IMG/VR virus record: IMGVR_UViG_3300004805_000005
Length of the DNA: 20,000 nt
Source: an uncultured virus (IMG/VR IMGVR_UViG_3300004805_000005)
Taxonomy: Duplodnaviria; Heunggongvirae; Uroviricota; Caudoviricetes
Strand: one strand, 5' to 3'
This document shows, in pieces, positions 10,633-19,732 of this stretch; position 1 is the first letter of the stretch, and the number at the start of each line of letters is the position of its first letter. The notes under the pieces are model-generated. The model was not told where the DNA came from, did not search any database, and was given only the letters and a program-made list of their open reading frames with translations. A program made the position numbers and the translations under genes.

Positions 10633-10718
10633 TAGCAGTAAGAACATCAACTAGTAATCGATGTTCAACCACTAGGGAACTAATGGCTGTCCTGCTAGAG
10701 ATACTTATAGGGAACGTA

Positions 10719-11840
10719 ATGAAATCAATCAAAATAAAGCTCTTAGACCAAAATTCTTCCAAAACCAATAAGCTTCTTTCTATTTTATCTGATCTTGGAT
10801 TGATTTCAAAAGCGTATCTTCCAATAAGACACAAAGAGATTCAAGACAAAACTTATCTACCATTCAAAGAACATTATTCGAACTTTCGTGTCTTATATCC
10901 TTCTATGAACTCTGGCGTTATACAATCCCATCTTCGATCATTGGATTCTTCTATCAAAATCTATATCGGTTGGTGTAAGAAGAAACATAAGCTGGTTTCT
11001 TTTCCTGATCACATTAAAACGTCTATTCCTCTTCGAAACGATATGTTTTCATTTGAATACAACGAAGAAACCAAAACATTTGACGCATGGCTAAAATTCC
11101 TCCGTCTATACTTTCCTCTATCTCTTTGCTCATATCACAAAAAAGCACTACAAGACATGGAATCTATTTCAGATTCTTCCATTATCAAACACAACGGAAC
11201 CTTATATCTTCGATTGGTCTTCAAAACAAAGGAAAAGACTATTTCTACTAACAAATCCATAGGAATAGATATTGGAATAGCCAAACCAATAGTCTGCTCG
11301 GATGGAAAGCAATTCGGCTCTGGTCGATTTATCAAACACAAGAAACTTGAATTTGGTAAAAAGAGAGCCAGAAACCAATCTAAGAAAGAAGCAATTCTAC
11401 AAACACAATCTCGATGGACAAACGATTTGAATCATAAACTCTCCCGTGAGTTGGTCGACTATTGCCTGTCTCAAGACATAGACGTTCTAGGTCTTGAGAA
11501 GTTGGAAGGCACTCAGCTATCAAACAGGAGATTCAGGAAGTACAATTGGGCATTCAAGGACTTACTCAGTAAGATAACCTATAAGGCCGAATTGGCTGGA
11601 CTGAGAGTCATAAGTGTTGACCCCAGAGGAACGAGTCAGACTTGTTCTTGCTGTGGTCTGAAGGATAAGACCAACAGGATTTCTCAAAGCCTATACGTAT
11701 GCTCGTGTGGGTCTGTGATGAATGCTGACATCAATGCGGCTAAAAACATTCAACGCCTTTCGACGTTGAATGGGTCACAAATGAATCTGACCAACGGATG
11801 CCTTGTACCGGAAACCCAGCAATCTTTAGTGGCTGGGTAG
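10719..11840 (+). CDS. tnpB: RNA-guided endonuclease TnpB
   Basis: RuvC-I IGIDIG, RuvC-II GLEKL, zinc finger TSQTCSCCG...CSCG, RuvC-III NADINAAKNI; D/E/D triad intact. Likely start MKSIKIKL at 10719 (AGGGA SD). Confidence 0.92.
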   Translation: MKSIKIKLLDQNSSKTNKLLSILSDLGLISKAYLPIRHKEIQDKTYLPFKEHYSNFRVLYPSMNSGVIQSHLRSLDSSIKIYIGWCKKKHKLVSFPDHIKTSIPLRNDMFSFEYNEETKTFDAWLKFLRLYFPLSLCSYHKKALQDMESISDSSIIKHNGTLYLRLVFKTKEKTISTNKSIGIDIGIAKPIVCSDGKQFGSGRFIKHKKLEFGKKRARNQSKKEAILQTQSRWTNDLNHKLSRELVDYCLSQDIDVLGLEKLEGTQLSNRRFRKYNWAFKDLLSKITYKAELAGLRVISVDPRGTSQTCSCCGLKDKTNRISQSLYVCSCGSVMNADINAAKNIQRLSTLNGSQMNLTNGCLVPETQQSLVAG

Positions 11841-11916: not shown

Positions 11917-12762
11917 CTACACATTATCGAATACACCAGCACCGGGTTTCCCCATCGTGCCCTTGACATCAGCCTTTTGACTCATCTTAGGACCAAGATT
12001 TGTCTTCCTAGCTGCACTTAACTTGCCATCTGCGGCACCCTTTCCGGGACCACCAGTAGCACTAGCCTTCTTACCAGAAGCCTTAAATGCAGACTGAACC
12101 TTATTGTTCTTGGCTTGCATCTTCTTTACTGTATTCTTGAAAGGCTTCATCTTAGCCTGAACCGACTCGTGGGTCAGTGCAGCGGGGGGCATCTCTTGTC
12201 CACCTTCTTCACCAGCTTCTTCACCAGCTTCTCCACCCATCTCTTCGCCTTCTTCGCCTTCTTCGCCTTCTTCCGACTCGGCGTCTGCATCGTATGCGCC
12301 TAACTTATCAGCAATCTCAGTCAACGAATCGATAACCATACGGAGTTCTGTAGCAATATCAACTTCATCAGAAGTCTCGTCTCCACCATCACCATCCGAA
12401 GGAAAGTCACCACTCTCGTCATCGAACTCGGTATCCCCAGTCTTCTCAAGGGGACTTTCATCACTGGCCATTTCCGACCCATCCTCTTCTTCTACAATCT
12501 GTTTCTTAAATAAACTATCAAACTTACTTTTTGGTAACATATTAGATAACTCCCTTGATTCTGTTTTGATCTTTCCGTGACCGGGATTGATCTTAGTATC
12601 GCCTTCGGCTGGTTTCTTGATTCCAGCCTTCTCGGGTCCACCCTGAGATGCTTTCTTTAGTTCACCCATAGCAGCGGTGCCGGGCTTGAGGTTGGTCTTT
12701 ACAGTACCTTCCTTTGATTCTGAAATAACTTGTGCATATGCCAATTCTAAACCATCTTTCAT
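11917..12762 (-). CDS. Low-complexity basic/acidic/basic protein, probable prohead core/scaffold or internal protein
   Basis: Own late-type promoter, AAGGAG SD and terminator; leader LELAYAQVISE; very acidic centre; several I/L-x-E sites; GC-richer than neighbouring genes. Confidence 0.6.
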   Translation of the reverse strand: MKDGLELAYAQVISESKEGTVKTNLKPGTAAMGELKKASQGGPEKAGIKKPAEGDTKINPGHGKIKTESRELSNMLPKSKFDSLFKKQIVEEEDGSEMASDESPLEKTGDTEFDDESGDFPSDGDGGDETSDEVDIATELRMVIDSLTEIADKLGAYDADAESEEGEEGEEGEEMGGEAGEEAGEEGGQEMPPAALTHESVQAKMKPFKNTVKKMQAKNNKVQSAFKASGKKASATGGPGKGAADGKLSAARKTNLGPKMSQKADVKGTMGKPGAGVFDNV

Positions 12763-12866: not shown

Positions 12867-13523
12867 ATGAAAAAACAAATAACGGCTGGAATTAACAACG
12901 ATGATCTCGATTATGACCAAACATATCTAAGAAATAAGCGTCTACCTAAGGCAGACGTAGAGTTTACATGGACACCAGAAATGGTGGCAGAGATCAAGAA
13001 ATGTACGGAAGACGTACAATATTTTGCAAGTAATTATTTCTATATCGTAACAAGTGATGATGGTAAACAAAAAATTAAATTGTATACTGTACAGAAACGT
13101 GCGTTAAAAGCCCTGCAAAAATATAGATTTAATATCATAAATGCATCCCGACAAACTGGAAAAACAACGCTAATGACAATTTATGCTCTTTGGATGACTT
13201 GTTTCGAGGAATATAAACGTGTTGTTATTGTCGCTAACAAGGAAAATACCGCTATTATGATTCTAAGGCGTATTGCCTTGGCCTATGAAGAGCTTCCAAA
13301 CTGGCTAAAACCCGGAGCAGTTCAGTATGGAAAGAAAGAAATCATATTCGGAAATCATTCAAGTATAGGTATTAGTACAACTACTGGATCGGCTGTAAGA
13401 GGAGACACGGTAAATTGTGTCGATGGAACAGGTATGGTCAACATAATAGATAACACTGGAATTATATATAATATACCATTAGAACTTCTTTCTCAAGTCG
13501 AAACCGTGAATATAAATGTGTAA
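12867..13523 (+). CDS. terL: Large terminase (gp17-like) fragment 1: N-terminal ATPase part (183 aa) plus split-intein IntN1 (35 aa, from 13416)
   Basis: Q motif LYTVQ, Walker A SRQTGKTT, ANK...YEELPNWL, AVRG; then CVDGTGMVNI...IPLELL, an intein block-A-like tail. Confidence 0.93.
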   Translation: MKKQITAGINNDDLDYDQTYLRNKRLPKADVEFTWTPEMVAEIKKCTEDVQYFASNYFYIVTSDDGKQKIKLYTVQKRALKALQKYRFNIINASRQTGKTTLMTIYALWMTCFEEYKRVVIVANKENTAIMILRRIALAYEELPNWLKPGAVQYGKKEIIFGNHSSIGISTTTGSAVRGDTVNCVDGTGMVNIIDNTGIIYNIPLELLSQVETVNINV

Positions 13524-13529
13524 TTTATA

Positions 13530-13541
13530 TAAGTATATGTA
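13530..13541 (+). promoter_or_regulatory. Late-promoter-like motif TAAGTATATGTA followed by AGAGG SD for terminase fragment 2
   Basis: Fits TAARTA-N4-TA in the 27-nt gap between fragments 1 and 2. Confidence 0.5.
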
Positions 13542-13550
13542 GAGGTTAAT

Positions 13551-15188
13551 ATGTTAGCAGATATAATAAATAATTCAAACAATCATAGTATAATTGCGTT
13601 TATAAAACATAATAAAGAATTGCAAAATGAATTAATAGACAAAACAAAATATTTAAACAATTTCTATGTTTATAGAGACATAACACAAAGATTATATCAT
13701 TATATGAATGATATTAAAATCATACCCAGAGATAAACATGGATGGTATAAAAAATTTGAATCTTTAGATAATGGGTACGGAGAAAAGTTACAGCCAGTTA
13801 GACTCGGAGAATTTAGCAAACTATCTGTACAGGATATAACAAATTATATATGTAGTGTGGAAAGCATTCCATCAGATACATATTTGATAGAATTTATTAA
13901 AAATAAAACCAATTTCCTAGATCCATACAATCCATCGATTCCATTAAGATTATCATATATAAAAGAAAATATCAATCATCCTATATTTACTACCGAAAAA
14001 CACACCACATTACTAAAACCAACAAGAAAACCTAAAAAATATATTATAGATAATTATAGACAATATCTAGCAGAAGATAATAAAATATTGTTCGTAAAAA
14101 AATGGTTGTTGTCTACTGGATCACACCGAAAAAGAATAACAAAATCAATAAAAGCTATCCCTATGATATGTGATTATATCAACGCATTTGCAATAGAACA
14201 TAAATTAGATATTACAGACTATTTTCAAATATCATATCATATGGTATATAATATAACTACATATCCAAATTGTTCTTGCTGTGGAAAGAGTATCGATAAG
14301 AAAAGGTTTAATTCACACTATTGTGCATATCCAAAAACATGTTCTATGTACTGTAATAATATATTAAGAGAAAACATACAGAAAAGACTCATAGCCAATA
14401 AAACCAACAGCGGTAATTTTAATACCAATATTGGGAAAAACGAAGAATATCTATTGAGACTGATATCTAAACTTAAGAAATTAAATATAACAAAAACCCA
14501 TAGAATTGGATCGTATTTCGTAGATGGCATAGATATAGATAAACATATATGCATCGAAGTACAGGAAAAATATCATCTATATAAAAATAGGTTTGAAAAG
14601 GATAAAACAAAATTTGAACACATTATTATAAATGGATATAATATTTTATGTGTATTTGATCTAACTGGCATCAATGAAAAGGGATTAACATACCTAAAAT
14701 ATATAGAATATTTTAAAAATAAATATAATGAAAAGATTACATTTATTAGTATTCTACCATCCAAAACAAAAATATTAACACAGAACGGTTGGAGTATATT
14801 CTGTGGTATAAAAAAATCAAACATACCACAAAATACAATAACAATACAAAGCAAAAACAATCAAATAACATGTACACCAAAACATTTACTTTTATGTAAT
14901 GAAAAGTTCATATCCGCAAAGGATATTAAGGTAGGGGACGTACTAGATTCCTTCGATGACATTAATAAAAATAAAATAATTAATATCCATAATACAACCG
15001 AAAGAATAGTTTATGATGTTATAGAAACTGAAGACAATACTTTTATTTATAATAATTTAATAATTCATAACTGTATAATTATTGATGAATGTCTTGGTGG
15101 AAGTGAAACTATAGATATCAAAAACAAACAAACCGGAGAAATACGAACTATACCAATAGAACATCTTCTCTTGGAAGAATATAAATAA
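13551..15188 (+). CDS. terL: Terminase fragment 2: putative homing endonuclease (~400 aa), IntC1, 6-aa extein CIIIDE (Walker B, 15072-15089), IntN2 (32 aa)
   Basis: Zn finger CSCC...CSMYC and nuclease-like YFVDG...IEVQEKYH; KILTQNGW, block B TCTPKH, KVGD, block F VYDV, block G IHN|C; CIIIDE; then CLGGSETIDI...IPIEHL. Confidence 0.88.
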   Translation: MLADIINNSNNHSIIAFIKHNKELQNELIDKTKYLNNFYVYRDITQRLYHYMNDIKIIPRDKHGWYKKFESLDNGYGEKLQPVRLGEFSKLSVQDITNYICSVESIPSDTYLIEFIKNKTNFLDPYNPSIPLRLSYIKENINHPIFTTEKHTTLLKPTRKPKKYIIDNYRQYLAEDNKILFVKKWLLSTGSHRKRITKSIKAIPMICDYINAFAIEHKLDITDYFQISYHMVYNITTYPNCSCCGKSIDKKRFNSHYCAYPKTCSMYCNNILRENIQKRLIANKTNSGNFNTNIGKNEEYLLRLISKLKKLNITKTHRIGSYFVDGIDIDKHICIEVQEKYHLYKNRFEKDKTKFEHIIINGYNILCVFDLTGINEKGLTYLKYIEYFKNKYNEKITFISILPSKTKILTQNGWSIFCGIKKSNIPQNTITIQSKNNQITCTPKHLLLCNEKFISAKDIKVGDVLDSFDDINKNKIINIHNTTERIVYDVIETEDNTFIYNNLIIHNCIIIDECLGGSETIDIKNKQTGEIRTIPIEHLLLEEYK

Positions 15189-15189
15189 C

Positions 15190-15921
15190 ATGAAAACCAC
15201 AAAAAAAATAAACGAGTGGCAAATATTAACCCCAATAGGATGGTCAGATTTTGGTGGTGTAAAACAATCTAAACGAACAGATACCATTAAATTGATATTT
15301 TCTGATAACCGATCATTAGTTTGTACACCAGAACATAAAATAAAAAATATTAATGATATATTCATATCTGCCAAAGATTCACTAAACCAAAAAATATTAA
15401 CACAGAACGGAGAAACTACAATAGTTGATATAATCTATATGACAGATGATTTATTAGTATATGATATATTAAACGTAGACAAGCAAAATGAATTCTATAG
15501 CAGTAATATAGTGAGTCATAACTGTGCCCATATCGAAGACCATCTGATGAAAGATTTCTGGGCATCCGTTATTCCTACTATTTCATCATCCAAGAAAAGA
15601 ACAACAAAGATTTTCATGGTATCTACACCTAAAGGAACTGGAAATATATTCTATAAGATATTTCAAAAGGCTCTCAAAGAAGAATCCGACGAAAACATGA
15701 AATGGCATGCCGAAGAAATTCATTGGTATGATATTCCCGGAAGAGGAAAATTATGGAAAGCTGACATGGTAGAAGCTTTACATGGGGATAAGTTGCTTTT
15801 CGAACAAGAATTTAATTGTTGTTGTGCCTCTGGATGTACCGTTACTATATTAGATACTTTAACAAACCAACAAAAACAAGTTACATTAGATGAATTATAT
15901 AGAAAAATCCAAGAAAATTAA
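15190..15921 (+). CDS. terL: Terminase fragment 3: IntC2 (111 aa), extein (99 aa, 15523-15819), IntN3 (33 aa)
   Basis: ILTPIGW, CTPEH, VYDI, VSHN|C; extein CAHI...IPTISS...STPKG (coupling motif)...HWYDIPGR...FEQEFNC; then CCASGCTVTI...VTLDELY. Confidence 0.92.
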   Translation: MKTTKKINEWQILTPIGWSDFGGVKQSKRTDTIKLIFSDNRSLVCTPEHKIKNINDIFISAKDSLNQKILTQNGETTIVDIIYMTDDLLVYDILNVDKQNEFYSSNIVSHNCAHIEDHLMKDFWASVIPTISSSKKRTTKIFMVSTPKGTGNIFYKIFQKALKEESDENMKWHAEEIHWYDIPGRGKLWKADMVEALHGDKLLFEQEFNCCCASGCTVTILDTLTNQQKQVTLDELYRKIQEN

Positions 15922-15932
15922 ACGGAACCCAA

Positions 15933-17108
15933 ATGAATAATAGATATAAAATTCTCACCCCCACAGGATTTCAACATTTTACAGGTATTCGTAAATTATC
16001 TGGAGAGTTGTATGAATTAAAAACTAATACTTGTACTATAAGCGCAACGAAATATCATCCATTTATGTGCAATGGAAACAAAACCCCCCTAGCTGCACTA
16101 TATTCTGGAGATGTTATAGATACTATCAATGGAACAGAAAACATCATTTCAATAACAAAACTACATAAGACAGATAATGTATATGATATTATTGGTGTTG
16201 AAAATGGTGAGATGTATTATTGTAATGATATTCTATCACATAATTGCTTTCTAGAAACAGGCGATTCAGCCATTGATATAGATCTGTTAAATGAATTAAC
16301 AGAAAAGTGTCGAGAACCTGAACATATATTCGAAGATGGTCACTATAAGGTATGGAGAGAGCCACAAGGAAACCATATCTATGGAATAGGCGTAGATGTA
16401 GGAGAAGGTATAGGAAAGGCCGCTTCGGTGGTACAAGTACTAGATTTTACAGACTTAACAGACATTCATCAAGTAGCTATGTACTCTGATCGGTATATTC
16501 ATCCTACTAGATTTGCTGGAATTATCAATCGAATCGCGCATCACTTTGGATGCCCACCCGTTTTAATCGAAAGAAATAACATAGGAAGCGAAGTTATTGC
16601 CATATTGAATGAAATTCATCATTATGATAATATTGTTGCCTGTAATCCAGAGTCTTTAGCCTATGGAGATATCAGGCCCGGAATCTTATCACATACTAAT
16701 ACTAAATTAAGCGGTGTGATGAACCTAAGATATTGGTTGAATATATCCAGAGTCGTTAATCTATATGATGCCGGAACGGTTCAGGAATTGAAAACCTTCG
16801 TCAGATATCCAAACGGATCTTGGAAGAAGAAACAAGGCGAAGATGTATTTGATGATAGAGTTATGGCTCTTGTATGGACACTATTTTTATTAGAGCCTGA
16901 TGTAGCTGAACGATATTATGATATTGTTGAGACGGATGATAATGGAAAACCACTAAAGATGGCGGCATATGTTATTCAACAAAATACTATGTTTAAATTA
17001 GATCCATTCTTCCAACAGACACCAAATGCTCCTATGCCTTCTTTCTTTAGTATGTCCCCTTCAGAAGATTTTGATGATCTGAGAAGAGAAGGATGGACAA
17101 GAGCATAG
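15933..17108 (+). CDS. terL: Terminase fragment 4: IntC3 (104 aa) plus nuclease domain (287 aa, from 16245)
   Basis: KILTPTGF, ATKYH, SGD, VYDI, LSHN|C; RNase H-like nuclease motifs IGVDVGEG, IERNN, DDRVMAL. Confidence 0.93.
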   Translation: MNNRYKILTPTGFQHFTGIRKLSGELYELKTNTCTISATKYHPFMCNGNKTPLAALYSGDVIDTINGTENIISITKLHKTDNVYDIIGVENGEMYYCNDILSHNCFLETGDSAIDIDLLNELTEKCREPEHIFEDGHYKVWREPQGNHIYGIGVDVGEGIGKAASVVQVLDFTDLTDIHQVAMYSDRYIHPTRFAGIINRIAHHFGCPPVLIERNNIGSEVIAILNEIHHYDNIVACNPESLAYGDIRPGILSHTNTKLSGVMNLRYWLNISRVVNLYDAGTVQELKTFVRYPNGSWKKKQGEDVFDDRVMALVWTLFLLEPDVAERYYDIVETDDNGKPLKMAAYVIQQNTMFKLDPFFQQTPNAPMPSFFSMSPSEDFDDLRREGWTRA

Positions 17109-17144: not shown

Positions 17145-17396
17145 ATGAACGAAGAACAAAAACCAATCGAATATCACCACGAGCTAACTGCAACCTTCAA
17201 GAGCAATATGGCCCCTCTTTGGCTCGTATTCAATAACAATATTTTCAACACACAAAACATTACTAATATCGAACGAATGCCAAACGGTGTGTTTATATAT
17301 ACAATTGATAGAAAAATACATACAGTAGAAGTAACAGATGTTAAAACTGTGTGGGAATCTCTACAGAAGGTGTTCTCTGAAGGTGTTACGGGTTAA
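17145..17396 (+). CDS. Hypothetical protein (83 aa)
   Basis: Fills the gap between terL and the convergent kamA; has its own promoter; stops overlap as TTAA. Confidence 0.65.
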   Translation: MNEEQKPIEYHHELTATFKSNMAPLWLVFNNNIFNTQNITNIERMPNGVFIYTIDRKIHTVEVTDVKTVWESLQKVFSEGVTG

Positions 17397-19732
17397 TTCA
17401 CTCTAGGATACTCGCTTATTCCACCAAATAGATTTTGGAAAATAACAGTATCCTTTTTTATTTCCTTTATATAGTTAGGAAGAAGCGGTATTTTTCCCTT
17501 TCCATCCTGTAGATCAACAATAAAAGACGGAACGCCTAATCCACTTATGTGCTTTCTTAAATAATCCATGACTTCTAATCCCTTTTCGATTGAAGTTTGG
17601 AAGTGATTCGTGCCTGTTACCTTGTCACAGCTAAAGATATAGTAAGGTCTAACCCTGAACGTCAGAAGTTTCCTGCATAATTCAGCCATCACTACAGGAT
17701 CATCGTTGATTCCTTTAAGCAATACACTTTGATTGTTAACTGGAATTCCCTTTTCTATCATCTTCAAACAGGCTTTCTTAGATTCTTCTGTTAGTTCATT
17801 AGGATGATTGAAGTGTGTATTCACGAATATAGGATGATATTTGTTTATCATGTTGACTAACTCACTGGTAATCCTTTGTGGCATGACAACCGGAGTACGA
17901 GTTCCAATACGAATGATCTCAACAGATTTAACAGATCGGATCTTGGAGATTATCTTCTCCAATTTAGAAGTAGACATGGTAAAAGCATCTCCACCAGAGA
18001 TGATAACATCTTTAATTTCGCTATGTAGGGTTAGATATTCTACTATTTTTTCTAATTGGCAATCTGTTAAATGATAATCTTTAGAACCGGCTACTCTTTT
18101 TCTAGTGCAATTATGGACAGACGCAAATTCTGCAAGATAGCTTTCGTCGCCTGTAACAGAAAGATCATAGAAAATTTCTTTGACGAATGGTTTTCTTTTT
18201 AAAATGTCTGATACTCTGCAAAAAATATAGCCATTATGTATAAAGGATTCGGATTTTGAAGAAATGGTATCTTTTTGTATACCAAGCCATTTATTGTAAC
18301 CATTTTCATCAAGTATTCTTATTTTATGCATTATTTTTAGGTTGTTTAGTTTTCTTCCATTAATACATACATCTGTTCTATTTTCTTCTTGGTGATAAAT
18401 AGAAGGCATATATCCAAGAGAAACCAACAACATAAAAATTTGACTAGAAAGATTTTCAGAAACAGTATTAAATTCAATAGATTTTGCTTTTGTATGAATT
18501 TTATGTTTATTAGAGAAATATCCATCTCCATCCAGCATTCCGTCAAGTAATTTCTTCTTAAAGCCATCTGTTGCAAAATTTATGATGCTTTCCGATATTG
18601 TTTTTTTATCAGAATATCTGCCGAACAAACTTTCAATTTCTTTGGCTAAGTCTGCATTATAAATCCTTACACAACAATTTGATTTGTTTTTATTTGTCTT
18701 TATTGTTATTTTACCAAGTTTTTGTCGTTTTACTATAATTTCAATTTTTCTTGCCAGTGTTTTTTCTTCTGTTTTGTTTAGCGAAAATCTAATGCATATT
18801 GGTTTGCCATTTTTTCTTTTTGGGATATCTCCTTCTGCTACATATAGTCCAAATAAATACGCCATCTCTTCGTTTTCGTATAGTTTATAATTTTGTAATG
18901 GCAAATTGTTTGTTTTTGGAATTGGAATACAAACATAGTCTCCTATTTCTATTTCGGAAGCATTTATAAAATTAGGTTTGAACTCTGTAACTCTATTAGG
19001 ATGTCTTTTCGCACATTGTTTTCTATTTGGCTTACAGACGCATTTTTCTCCACAATTACATAGAATATCTTTTCTTTTTAAGATTAAGAATGGATGCTCC
19101 TGTGTTGTTTCTATTTTTTGACTTCTTGATGTTTTTAATATTAAAACATCTTTCTTATATGTCCTATTAAACACATCATATACAGTACCAATTCCACCAG
19201 TATGTGTAATAACTGTATCGCCAATAATTATATCTTTAATATCCTTTTGTGTAAAATTGGACATTGTTATTTTTGTTTTGTCGCATAGAGAATGCCTACA
19301 ATACATGCTACATTGGCTCGTAGAGACAATTAACGCCCTGTCTGGGTATCTATGCACCAATCCATCCATAACAGTATCCTCTTCCTCGTGAAGGGGATCG
19401 TTGGATAAGAAGCTAGGATTATCTAATTCCAGAGGATTAGGAATGCATTGGCTGAAAATAGGATCACTATAATCAAACTTTCTTATCAGAGAGAAATAGT
19501 AAGGAGTTATTGCCAAGGGAAAACTCTGTTCGGTTTTTGATATTTCTTCAGAAAGAGAGAAGTGTTCCTTGCTCAATAGATTTTTCAGCCCATCAGAAGA
19601 CTTTATTCGGTTCTTAAGTTGCCATCTCCAGTCGCCCCAACCTTTCGATTGAGGCTTTCTACTACCGGGTTCTTCCGGTTCATTAATGTTGTCTATATTA
19701 GTTAAATTCGGCGTATCAATTTTGTGTATCAT
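17393..19732 (-). CDS. kamA: KamA-family radical SAM enzyme (lysine 2,3-aminomutase-like), intein-containing; ~385 aa after splicing
   Basis: WxDWRWQLKNRI, ITPYY, DPLxEE, GLVHRYPDR, CSMYCRH|CTRKR, ISGGD, RIGTRTPVVMPQRI, THFNHP, NQSVLLKGIND, PYY, and GKIP (PLP lysine); AAGGAG SD. Confidence 0.92.
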   Translation of the reverse strand: MIHKIDTPNLTNIDNINEPEEPGSRKPQSKGWGDWRWQLKNRIKSSDGLKNLLSKEHFSLSEEISKTEQSFPLAITPYYFSLIRKFDYSDPIFSQCIPNPLELDNPSFLSNDPLHEEEDTVMDGLVHRYPDRALIVSTSQCSMYCRHSLCDKTKITMSNFTQKDIKDIIIGDTVITHTGGIGTVYDVFNRTYKKDVLILKTSRSQKIETTQEHPFLILKRKDILCNCGEKCVCKPNRKQCAKRHPNRVTEFKPNFINASEIEIGDYVCIPIPKTNNLPLQNYKLYENEEMAYLFGLYVAEGDIPKRKNGKPICIRFSLNKTEEKTLARKIEIIVKRQKLGKITIKTNKNKSNCCVRIYNADLAKEIESLFGRYSDKKTISESIINFATDGFKKKLLDGMLDGDGYFSNKHKIHTKAKSIEFNTVSENLSSQIFMLLVSLGYMPSIYHQEENRTDVCINGRKLNNLKIMHKIRILDENGYNKWLGIQKDTISSKSESFIHNGYIFCRVSDILKRKPFVKEIFYDLSVTGDESYLAEFASVHNCTRKRVAGSKDYHLTDCQLEKIVEYLTLHSEIKDVIISGGDAFTMSTSKLEKIISKIRSVKSVEIIRIGTRTPVVMPQRITSELVNMINKYHPIFVNTHFNHPNELTEESKKACLKMIEKGIPVNNQSVLLKGINDDPVVMAELCRKLLTFRVRPYYIFSCDKVTGTNHFQTSIEKGLEVMDYLRKHISGLGVPSFIVDLQDGKGKIPLLPNYIKEIKKDTVIFQNLFGGISEYPRVN
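18110..19291 (-). mobile_element. Contiguous intein (394 aa) with LAGLIDADG homing endonuclease
   Basis: Begins SLCDKTKI (Ser1); IGDTVITHTG; block B TTQEHPF; LAGLIDADG motifs LFGLYVAEG and LLDGMLDGDG; block F FYDLSV; ends VHN|C. Confidence 0.93.

What the first reader, a model, noticed from the sequence alone, without database searches (positions are those of the whole stretch)
13416..16244. Natural set of three split inteins that must be mutually orthogonal (biotechnology candidate)
Inference: all six intein halves coexist in one cell. Cross-pairing (IntN1 with IntC2 or IntC3, IntN2 with IntC3) would delete Walker B and/or the coupling motif, so selection should favour specificity. Seen: IntC1 and IntC2 share CTPxH and FISAKD and look related, while the three IntN pieces differ in charge (IntN1 has no Lys or Arg). 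IntN pieces of 32-35 aa are short enough for chemical synthesis, so the set could suit ordered multi-fragment ligation. Partial cross-talk would instead give a form of alternative protein splicing.
Basis: inference. Interest (0 to 1): 0.85.

Follow-up and report, generated by a model that had tools for sequence, protein, structure and literature searches.

The report
Four-piece phage terminase, three split inteins
An uncultured freshwater phage encodes its DNA-packaging motor as four separate proteins that three different two-part self-splicing elements (split inteins) most likely stitch together, so each half must find its own partner; the layout is real and recurs in wild phages, but partner specificity has never been tested.

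Summary
Four adjacent + strand genes (12867-17108) encode a T4-type large terminase (TerL) cut at three sites by atypically split class-1 inteins. The N halves are 32-35 aa and the C halves 104-111 aa. All catalytic residues are intact, and the exteins tile an uninterrupted 577-aa homologue without gaps. The three junctions are identical in contigs of other sequencing runs.

The inteins belong to the known AceL-TerL/GOS-TerL/Cat family and are 34-40% (C halves) and 19-38% (N halves) identical to each other. IntC1 is fused to a Vsr/DUF559-like endonuclease. Walker B (CIIIDE) is a 6-aa extein between IntC1 and IntN2.

"Must be mutually orthogonal" is a sound inference but is not shown:
- One complex prediction favours cognate IntN1 over cis-tethered IntN2 on IntC1.
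- Two single-chain folds were weak or inconclusive.
- Published engineered atypical inteins cross-react at 40-50% IntN identity.

The set is not unique. Among the 150 best database relatives, 19 other clusters are "middle fragments" carrying an IntC in front and an IntN at the end. Earlier notes of this scan report three-piece terminases and a four-piece DnaE on other DNA. I found no published description of a natural gene with more than one split intein. Verdict: a new variant of a known kind, of moderate interest.

The parts
12867..13415 (+). Extein 1 (183 aa): TerL N-terminal ATPase part with Walker A (SRQTGKTT)
   Evidence: PHROG terminase large subunit phrog_5989, E 1.1e-44. 81% identical to the TerL of L003. 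Aligns to residues 10-186 of the intein-free TerL of L006.
13416..13520 (+). IntN1 (35 aa), starts with Cys1; followed by TAA at 13521-13523
   Evidence: IntN profile E 9e-14. Predicted to dock on IntC1.
13524..13550 (+). 27-nt spacer between ORF1 and ORF2. Same frame, with two in-frame TAA and a GAGG 5 nt before the ATG.
   Evidence: Identical in a contig of a second run, X2 13300-13698, 0 differences.
13551..14759 (+). N-terminal 403 aa of ORF2: putative homing endonuclease. A Cys-rich segment is followed by a DUF559/Vsr-like nuclease core at aa 290-366 (nt 14418-14648). It is fused in frame to IntC1.
   Evidence: DUF559: E 0.013-0.018 here, below Pfam's cut-off, but matched in 4 of 5 aligned homologues with best E 8.9e-5. 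Homologue P0015 is named 'very-short-patch-repair endonuclease' by JGI. The fusion is kept in P0014-P0016.
14760..15071 (+). IntC1 (about 104 aa): block B TPKH, block F VYD, ends HN. The N-terminal boundary is approximate.
   Evidence: Best PDB match 6dsl_B (CatC), E 7.6e-5.
15072..15089 (+). Extein 2 (6 aa, CIIIDE): Walker B, with the Cys+1 of intein 1
   Evidence: Aligns to residues 184-190 of the L006 TerL. Intein-free relatives read ...TVNCIIIDEAAHIE....
15090..15185 (+). IntN2 (32 aa); TAA at 15186-15188, then 1 nt before the ATG of ORF3
   Evidence: 43% identical to the IntN of cultured Campylobacter phage CPX at the same site.
15190..15522 (+). IntC2 (111 aa): TPEH, VYD, SHN
   Evidence: 6dsl_B, E 1.9e-6. 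The junction 15095-15252 is identical in run X4.
15523..15819 (+). Extein 3 (99 aa; 100 if IntN3 starts at 15823). Starts with the Cys+1 of intein 2 and holds the VSTPKGTG stretch.
   Evidence: 84% identical to L003/L004. PHROG TerL phrog_2. Aligns to L006 TerL 186-289.
15820..15918 (+). IntN3 (33 aa, CCASGC...). The start is ambiguous among the Cys codons 15817-15825. TAA at 15919-15921.
   Evidence: (64% identical to IntN3 of P0006).
15933..16244 (+). IntC3 (104 aa): TKYH, VYD, SHN
   Evidence: 6dsl_B, E 1.5e-4. The junction 15872-16400 is identical in run X2.
16245..17108 (+). Extein 4 (287 aa + stop). Starts with the Cys+1 of intein 3. TerL C-terminal (nuclease) part.
   Evidence: 75% identical to L003. 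Aligns to L006 TerL 288-574. PHROG terminase phrog_24361.

Best explanation
The window holds the large terminase gene of an uncultured freshwater T4-type (probably jumbo) phage. Three atypically split class-1 inteins break it into four co-oriented, almost abutting genes.

Proposed course of events:
1. The four proteins are made together (inferred).
2. Each short IntN (32-35 aa) docks onto its own pre-formed IntC (104-111 aa) and completes a HINT fold.
3. Each pair then runs the standard reaction: Cys1 N-S shift, transfer to Cys+1, cyclisation of the terminal Asn, S-N shift.
4. This joins E1-E2-E3-E4 into a TerL of about 575 aa.

The by-products are three IntN peptides, IntC2, IntC3 and a 507-aa Vsr-like endonuclease-IntC1 protein. 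That last protein probably serves homing of intein 1.

ORF2 and ORF3 each carry an IntC in front and a non-cognate IntN behind. Productive assembly therefore needs cognate pairing to win over six possible wrong pairings, two of them intramolecular. I think the preference is mostly built into the diverged halves.

Shown: the anatomy, the intact catalytic residues, extein collinearity and the recurrence in nature. Inferred: expression, splicing and specificity.
For: Anatomy and frames.

TerL identity of the exteins.

The exteins tile an intein-free 577-aa TerL:
- ORF1 9-185 -> 10-186
- ORF2 507-513 -> 184-190
- ORF3 107-210 -> 186-289
- ORF4 104-389 -> 288-574

The exteins are 75-84% identical to a relative that has only one of the three inteins.

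Catalytic residues are invariant in all three: T and H of block B, VYD of block F, terminal HN, Cys1 and Cys+1.

All three IntC have as best solved match 6dsl_B, 'Consensus engineered intein CatC' (E 1.9e-6 to 1.5e-4).

The junctions are not assembly errors. Other runs' contigs bridge ORF1/ORF2 and ORF3/ORF4 (X2) and ORF2/ORF3 (X4, 2022) with 0 differences.

Single split inteins of the same kind sit in the only TerL of cultured phages:
- Aeromonas phage PX29 gp17A/17B, near site 3, with a 33-aa IntN and a GIY-YIG domain fused to IntC.
- Campylobacter phage CPX at site 2, with a 31-aa IntN and halves about 22 kb apart.

The ORF2 architecture (endonuclease-IntC1-6 aa-IntN2) is kept at 51% identity in P0014.

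Middle fragments recur: 19 other clusters among the 150 best relatives.

Cognate preference comes from one complex prediction. IntC1-CIIIDE-IntN2 was folded with the E1 tail plus IntN1:
- Score 0.66 against a best control of 0.34 (3 controls).
- That mark was reached by 116 of 157 solved complexes and 2 of 215 mismatched pairs.
- The runs agree in at least 70% of contacts, and the partner's pLDDT is at least 64.
- My own alignments were used, so those counts hold only roughly.
- The interface lies on residues 2-105 (IntC1 and Cys+1), with none in the tethered IntN2.
- A like complex (Cat, 6DSL) is solved, so the pass may reflect likeness only.

Folded alone, the same chain leaves IntN2 at pLDDT 33-63 against 74-94 for IntC1.
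Against: - No expression or protein data. No RNA run holds the stretch, which is no evidence either way.
- Specificity is untested.
- The three IntN share one hydrophobic core pattern.
- The docking strand pairs with IntC mainly as beta-sheet (contacts), which discriminates poorly.
- An engineered atypical IntC spliced with IntN only 40-50% identical (PMC3443213, passages).
- In a 24 x 24 matrix, cross-talk was mostly seen with atypical splits (PMC7090010, passages).
- GOS-TerL accepts the AceL-TerL IntN (review PMC11766414, passages).
- In the ORF3 fold, IntN3 is the best-defined part (pLDDT 73-85). The output does not say whether it sits on IntC2.
- The complex tool itself warns that close cousins of a true partner also pass.
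- The whole genome is not held, so a second, intact TerL elsewhere in the phage cannot be excluded.
Confidence: 0.75

Rival explanations
1. The halves are only partly specific. Enough correct TerL is made because of kinetics and geometry: translational coupling of neighbouring genes, high local concentration, different splicing rates or an obligatory order. Wrong products (E1-E3.., E1-E4, cyclised extein 2 or 3) are tolerated as waste or even used.
For: - Shared IntN core motif.
- Published cross-reactivity of atypical splits (PMC3443213, PMC7090010, PMC11766414; passages).
- 1-nt and 11-nt gaps between ORF2/ORF3 and ORF3/ORF4.
- No + strand terminator-like site inside the four genes downstream of 13018.
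- IntN3 is well defined in the ORF3 model.
Against: - The cis pairings would be kinetically favoured over the trans cognate ones. Any real affinity would therefore drain ORF2 and ORF3, yet middle fragments persist in many lineages.
- IntN identities of 19-38% lie below the 40-50% at which cross-reaction was reported.
- One search places IntN1, not the tethered IntN2, on IntC1.
Confidence: 0.18
2. One or more of the inteins no longer splices. The pieces would then work as a non-covalent complex, or this TerL copy is dead and another gene packages the DNA.
For: - Broken phage genes that work without splicing are cited in the introduction of PMC2677866 (gp43, NrdA).
- The whole genome is not available.
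- The relative P0014 has Q in place of the block B His and ends in HQ.
Against: - All catalytic residues are intact in all three window inteins.
- The exteins are conserved at 75-84% with no frameshift.
- A 6-aa Walker B piece hanging between two intein halves on a 545-aa protein could hardly be placed into an ATPase fold without ligation.
- The same DNA is present in runs of 2017 and 2022.
Confidence: 0.05
3. Artefact or recoding: these are contiguous inteins, and the stops come from assembly errors, read-through or frameshifting.
For: ORF1 and ORF2 are in the same frame.
Against: - Two in-frame TAA codons and a GAGG precede the ORF2 ATG.
- ORF3 and ORF4 are in other frames with their own ATG.
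- All three junctions are identical in contigs of other runs.
- The same split point, 30-44 aa after Cys1, is found in L003, L010, L011, L020, L021, P0006, P0012, PX29 and CPX.
Confidence: 0.02

Closest known systems
AceL-TerL, GOS-TerL and their consensus Cat-TerL (PDB 6DSL): naturally, atypically split inteins of phage terminases
   Same: - Same host protein.
- Short IntN and long IntC that contains block B. Sizes in the review PMC11766414 (passages/table) are 25+104, 37+115 and 30+104 aa; here they are 32-35 + 104-111.
- Cys1/Cys+1 class-1 chemistry.
- CatC is the best solved match of all three IntC.
   Different: - Each of those was described as a single intein in a gene cut in two. Here three diverged members (34-40% IntC identity) sit in one gene.
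- One is fused to an endonuclease.
- Two are only 6 residues apart.
- Their insertion sites were not on hand, so allelism is untested.
- The original papers (Thiel 2014, Bachmann & Mootz 2015, Stevens 2018) are recalled, not read.
Fractured genes of Dassa, London, Stoddard, Schueler-Furman & Pietrokovski 2009 (PMC2677866; section 10 and passages read)
   Same: - Phage-type genes broken by split inteins on one strand.
- GIY-YIG or Vsr-like endonucleases between the halves.
- One terminase locus had an unusually long (122 aa) C part.
   Different: - There, each locus is fractured in two and the endonuclease is a free-standing gene.
- Here there are three fractures.
- The Vsr-like endonuclease is fused in frame to IntC1.
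- Inteins 2 and 3 have no endonuclease.
Split TerL of cultured phages: Aeromonas phage PX29 gp17A/17B; Campylobacter phage CPX
   Same: - Atypical split with a 31-33-aa IntN.
- In PX29 the endonuclease is fused to the C-intein, as annotated in GU396103.
- CPX uses the same site as intein 2, directly after Walker B.
   Different: - Only one split intein per gene.
- The PX29 site lies 2 residues from site 3.
- The CPX halves lie about 22 kb apart on opposite strands.
Engineered tandem protein trans-splicing with orthogonal split inteins (PMC7090010; PMC12707363; passages)
   Same: Several fragments are joined in a fixed order by different split inteins. Middle fragments carry IntC in front and IntN behind.
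   Different: - Those sets were assembled by people from unrelated inteins and tested in matrices.
- This is a natural, related trio whose specificity is untested.
SICLOPPS (IntC-extein-IntN constructs for peptide cyclisation; recalled, not read)
   Same: The topology of ORF2's C-terminal 142 aa (IntC1-CIIIDE-IntN2) and of ORF3.
   Different: The two halves on each polypeptide come from different inteins, so cyclisation would be a side reaction, not the purpose.

Membership tests
Class-1 intein (HINT domain), split form | Cys/Ser at intein position 1 and Cys/Ser/Thr at +1 | tested here: met
   Cys1 and Cys+1 at all three sites.
Class-1 intein (HINT domain), split form | Block B TxxH, block F, penultimate His and terminal Asn | tested here: met
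   TPKH/TPEH/TKYH, VYD and HN are invariant columns of alignment A1.
Class-1 intein (HINT domain), split form | The halves lie on separate ORFs, and the exteins are collinear with an uninterrupted homologue | tested here: met
   Stops and starts. Tiling of the L006 TerL. Empty sites in L005-L007 and 15 metagenome loci.
Class-1 intein (HINT domain), split form | Protein trans-splicing activity | not testable with these tools
   Needs expression. Only a complex prediction for pair 1 is available.
Atypically split TerL inteins (AceL-TerL/GOS-TerL/Cat) | Short IntN (about 25-37 aa) and IntC of about 104-115 aa that includes block B | tested here: met
   32-35 aa and 104-111 aa. Reference sizes come from PMC11766414 (passages).
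Atypically split TerL inteins (AceL-TerL/GOS-TerL/Cat) | Sequence relatedness to a family member | tested here: met
   6dsl_B CatC, E 1.9e-6, 7.6e-5 and 1.5e-4 over nearly the full length.
Atypically split TerL inteins (AceL-TerL/GOS-TerL/Cat) | Same insertion site as AceL-TerL/GOS-TerL | not tested
Fractured gene sensu Dassa 2009 | Free-standing endonuclease gene between IntN and IntC genes | tested here: not met
   - Intein 1: the endonuclease is fused in frame to IntC1 (one 545-aa ORF; fusion kept in P0014-P0016).
- Inteins 2 and 3: gaps of 1 and 11 nt, with no endonuclease.
Vsr-like/DUF559 homing endonuclease | Match to the DUF559/Vsr nuclease core | tested here: inconclusive
   E 0.013-0.018, below Pfam's cut-off, for the window protein. 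4 of 5 homologues match, best E 8.9e-5. JGI's name for P0015 agrees. No fold or activity test was done.
Mutually orthogonal split-intein set | No splicing in any non-cognate IntN/IntC combination | not testable with these tools
   Indirect only: 19-38% IntN identity. One search was inconclusive.

The most novel reading that the evidence does not exclude
The three pairs are a naturally co-selected, strictly orthogonal trio of closely similar architecture. Partner choice would be written entirely in 32-35-aa peptides and be strong enough to beat intramolecular competition on ORF2 and ORF3. That would make this and the many related multi-split terminases a ready-made library for ordered four-fragment, semisynthetic protein assembly, and a natural experiment on how short IntN peptides encode specificity. 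A bolder side reading is that a small amount of cis cross-talk on ORF2 makes a natural cyclic hexapeptide, cyclo(CIIIDE).
Probability: 0.35. Interest if true: 0.75.

Novelty: new variant of a known kind. Interest (0 to 1): 0.55.

Why it matters
Split inteins with short, synthesisable N halves are prized tools. Only a few natural ones have been characterised, and engineered ones tend to cross-react. A natural gene that can only work if three related pairs sort themselves correctly, two of them against a tethered competitor, gives a direct test bed for how such specificity is encoded. It also offers candidate parts for ordered multi-fragment ligation.

Biologically, it shows how far selfish elements can fragment an essential phage gene: four genes, and a 6-residue Walker B extein between two inteins. 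The database census shows this is a widespread, apparently undescribed state of terminase genes in wild phages.

Tried and rejected
- Nucleotide search of 50,697 phage records: no match.
- Whole genome not held, so a second TerL or further intein halves outside the window could not be sought.
- The search for related loci with P0014 in viral contigs: none. The neighbours of that second ORF2-like protein therefore stay unknown.
- Search for longer proteins carrying an IntC2-like front: none among 96 candidates. The tool rates this as weak evidence.
- No RNA holder listed for the stretch.
- AF2 fold of ORF3: poor model (mean pLDDT 56.5, pTM 0.48). IntN3 is locally confident, but its position relative to IntC2 is not reported, so the result is inconclusive.
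- AF2 fold of IntC1-CIIIDE-IntN2: suggests IntN2 is not docked. However, its alignment had no rows over IntN2 and there is no cis-cognate positive control.
- Charge complementarity as a pairing code: rejected.
- Promoter/terminator scan: 43 promoter-like sites against 31.3 +/- 5.4 expected in AT-rich DNA. Not informative beyond the absence of + strand terminator-like sites downstream of 13018 within the four genes.
- 'One mobile cassette' idea (a single endonuclease moving all three inteins). For it: the 1+2 architecture recurs in P0014. Against it: intein 3's lineage also occurs with a different intein 1 (P0006), and intein 1 occurs alone (P0015, P0016). Left open.
- Rows dropped: L008 as identical to L003, and L010_C1, which was mis-parsed to one residue. 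Its '100' cells are an artefact.
- My site classifier left 78 of 241 domains as 'other', so I use it only qualitatively.
- The apparent full-length match of ORF3 to Campylobacter phages is IntC + extein only. The overlap with IntN3 is a spurious extension.

Full report
**What is there**

Four consecutive + strand ORFs (12867-13523, 13551-15188, 15190-15921, 15933-17108) are separated by 27, 1 and 11 nt, and each ends in TAA. PHROG profiles identify terminase large subunit segments in three of them:
- ORF1: phrog_5989, E 1.1e-44
- ORF3: phrog_2, E 5.7e-8
- ORF4: phrog_24361, E 1.8e-6

Pfam gives weak Terminase_6N and Intein_splicing hits.

Dissection:
- E1: 183 aa, with Walker A
- IntN1: 35 aa
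- ORF2 = a 403-aa N-terminal domain + IntC1 (104 aa) + the hexapeptide CIIIDE (Walker B) + IntN2 (32 aa)
- ORF3 = IntC2 (111 aa) + E3 (99-100 aa) + IntN3 (32-33 aa)
- ORF4 = IntC3 (104 aa) + E4 (287 aa)

The finding's coordinates, 13416-16244, are exactly Cys1 of IntN1 to the terminal Asn of IntC3.

**Are they real inteins?**

All three have Cys1, block B TxxH, the VYD of block F, a terminal His-Asn and Cys+1. The best solved match of each IntC is 6dsl_B, 'Consensus engineered intein CatC', over nearly its full length (E 1.9e-6, 7.6e-5, 1.5e-4). That places them in the atypically split TerL intein family.

Profiles of IntC and IntN find three copies each in the window and nothing else (next best E 0.18). 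The window copies were part of the profiles.

**Are the exteins one gene?**

Against an intein-free 577-aa TerL from a related contig (L006), the four ORFs tile residues 10-186, 184-190, 186-289 and 288-574 in order. A 238.8-kb viral contig (L003/L004) has exteins 81, 84 and 75% identical. It carries only a split intein at site 1, with sites 2 and 3 empty (CIIIDEAAHIEE; FEQEFNCCFLETG).

The collinearity, together with P0006 (FNC|CSASVC...), suggests that IntN3 begins at 15820 (33 aa) rather than 15823. The three Cys codons at 15817-15825 leave this ambiguous.

**Is it an artefact?**

- ORF1 and ORF2 share a frame, but they are separated by two TAA codons and a GAGG-ATG start. The other junctions change frame.
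- Contigs of other public runs bridge each junction with 0 differences: X2 (another freshwater sample) covers 13300-13698 and 15872-16400, and X4 (2022) covers 15095-15252.
- X1, which spans everything, may be the source of this DNA.
- The 2017 runs may belong to one campaign.

**Relations among the three inteins**

Pairwise identity is 34-40% for IntC and 19-38% for IntN. That is about as far apart as any two lineages of the family.

Each is nearest to inteins at its own class of site:
- IntC1 to Walker-B-site inteins (38-40%).
- IntC2 to inteins followed by CA[FH]I.. and to Campylobacter phage CPX (37% for IntC, 43% for IntN).
- IntC3 to inteins followed by C.F.GSS (38-41%).

The window's intein 1 is not the common site-1 allele of its closest relatives. 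That allele has an IntC starting MADL and ending HQ, a 43-44-aa IntN, and a free-standing GIY-YIG gene or none; its members are 52-70% identical among themselves and 31-40% to IntC1.

Intein 1 instead belongs to a lineage whose IntC is fused to a Cys-rich, DUF559/Vsr-like endonuclease:
- P0014 (549 aa, 51% identical) has the same endonuclease-IntC1-CIILDE-IntN2 layout.
- P0015 and P0016 (936/941 aa) carry the endonuclease-IntC1 followed by the rest of TerL without inteins 2 and 3.
- DUF559 is matched in 4 of 5 members (best E 8.9e-5), and JGI names P0015 a very-short-patch-repair endonuclease.

**How common is this?**

*Metagenome loci.* In 23 loci found with an extein-3 profile, the Walker B junction was readable in 15. 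Of those, 5 had a split intein at site 1 and 0 had one at site 2. The site-3 junction was readable in 19 and was empty in all. Four loci had a contiguous intein in the P-loop.

*ORF3-like proteins.* A search with ORF3 in 5.8 billion clusters found the IntC2-E3-IntN3 layout only in the window's own protein. It also found:
- P0006, with inteins 1 and 3
- P0012, with intein 3 only
- P0010, with an IntC2-like front

*Family-wide profile search.* A profile of seven IntC against 1.84 billion representatives gave 4434 hits at E <= 1e-3 and 1014 at E <= 1e-10. Among the 150 best:
- 140 have a full IntC-type domain, 82 have two or more, and 12 have three or more.
- 17 carry an N-terminal IntC together with a C-terminal IntN.
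- 4 more carry an internal IntC plus a C-terminal IntN.
- Two of these 21 are the window's own proteins, which leaves 19 other 'middle fragments'. This is an undercount, since P0018 and P0053 were missed.

Examples:
- P0037: 160 aa, IntC - 11 aa - IntN.
- P0028 and P0089: IntC1 - 8 aa - contiguous intein - E3 - IntN3.
- P0064 and P0072: P-loop IntC - extein - contiguous site-1 intein - 6 aa - IntN2.
- P0022: five inteins.

So the window is an extreme combination within a widespread state of TerL genes, not a singular case. Earlier notes of this scan also report three-piece terminases, a SICLOPPS-like middle piece and a four-piece DnaE on other DNA. I used them as leads only.

**Evidence that such inteins work in vivo**

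This is inferred from cultured phages whose only TerL is split in the same way:
- PX29 gp17A ends ...QQEH|C + 32 aa, and gp17B is GIY-YIG + IntC.
- In CPX, a 238-aa N fragment ends ...LIFIDE|C + 30 aa. The IntC-bearing C fragment lies about 22 kb away on the other strand.

**Orthogonality**

The logic is right and can be sharpened. There are six non-cognate pairings. Two of them (IntC1/IntN2 on ORF2, IntC2/IntN3 on ORF3) are intramolecular and would cyclise the extein, so they should be under the strongest counter-selection.

Direct evidence is thin:
1. Complex prediction of IntC1-CIIIDE-IntN2 with the E1 tail + IntN1:
   - Score 0.66 against a best control of 0.34. That mark was reached by 116 of 157 solved complexes and 2 of 215 mismatches.
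   - The runs share at least 70% of contacts, and the partner's pLDDT is at least 64.
   - My own alignments were used, so those counts hold only roughly.
   - The interface is confined to IntC1 and Cys+1, so the trans cognate peptide, not the tethered IntN2, fills the groove.
   - Because the Cat complex is solved and cousins of a true partner can pass, this shows likeness rather than specificity.
2. The same chain alone: IntC1 at pLDDT 74-94 and IntN2 at 33-63. The alignment had no rows over IntN2, and there was no positive control.
3. ORF3 alone: a poor model in which IntN3 is locally confident (73-85). Inconclusive.

Against strict orthogonality:
- The IntN share a common core pattern.
- Charges give no pairing code.
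- The literature reports cross-reaction of an engineered atypical IntC with IntN 40-50% identical (PMC3443213).
- In a 24 x 24 matrix, cross-talk came mostly from atypical splits (PMC7090010).
- GOS-TerL and AceL-TerL IntN are interchangeable (PMC11766414).
- For all three papers I read passages only.

My estimates: cognate products dominate in vivo, about 0.75; all six off-diagonal pairs are essentially silent in vitro, about 0.5.

**Literature**

Dassa et al. 2009 (PMC2677866; section 10 and passages) describe loci fractured in two, including one terminase with a 122-aa C part. Searches turned up only engineered uses of two or more split inteins. None described a natural gene with several.

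The library lacks many subscription papers. The original AceL-TerL, GOS-TerL, Cat and VidaL papers are recalled, not read, so a mention there cannot be excluded. Passages were also read from 10.1101/2025.01.02.630785, PMC10189870 and PMC12707363.

**Verdict**

- The object is a new variant (a multi-split, four-piece form) of a known kind of element.
- It is of moderate interest, mainly as a testable natural case of split-intein partner choice.

Noticed in passing
window 17393-19732 (-): A 779-aa lysine-2,3-aminomutase-like radical SAM protein (LAM_C E 3.7e-11, Radical_SAM E 1.8e-6) carries a contiguous intein with a LAGLIDADG domain (E 4.4e-10). By eye the intein sits inside the CxxxCxxC cluster motif (CSMYCRH | S...VHN | CTRKR), so the third cluster Cys would be the +1 nucleophile and the intein would start with Ser.
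   Followed up: no
window 10683-11840 (+): A TnpB/IS605 OrfB-like gene (Cas12f1-like TNB domain E 2.7e-22; phrog_506 transposase E 2.2e-44) lies about 1 kb upstream of the terminase operon.
   Followed up: no
window 11917-12762 (-) and L003 921-1715 (-): An acidic, Glu/Gly-rich 281-aa protein with no family hit is conserved in the same position (upstream, divergent from TerL) in the related 238.8-kb contig. That contig has an extra 520-aa repeat protein inserted between it and TerL.
   Followed up: no
P0075 (database protein), residues 233-375: A contiguous site-1 intein ends ...ISHN and is followed directly by C-I-T-G-D-N..., an IntN, with no extein residues between. This resembles the 'extein-less IntC-IntN' layout noted earlier in this scan.
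   Followed up: partly
L002 (Vibrio phage VP-1) 1822-5164: TerL has a contiguous intein in the P-loop. At ...FDQEYD|C a GIY-YIG domain is fused behind the N part, and the next gene starts with only about 61 aa of intein C part that lacks a recognisable block B. This is a different split geometry, or a decayed intein.
   Followed up: no
P0014 (database protein), IntC1 part: The closest relative of ORF2 reads CTHEQ where block B TxxH is expected, and ends in HQ instead of HN. It may be a variant or weakened intein 1.
   Followed up: no
L031/L032 (Campylobacter phage CPX): The terminase of this cultured phage is in two genes about 22 kb apart on opposite strands, joined by an atypically split intein directly after Walker B. 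The record annotates only the C fragment as terminase.
   Followed up: partly
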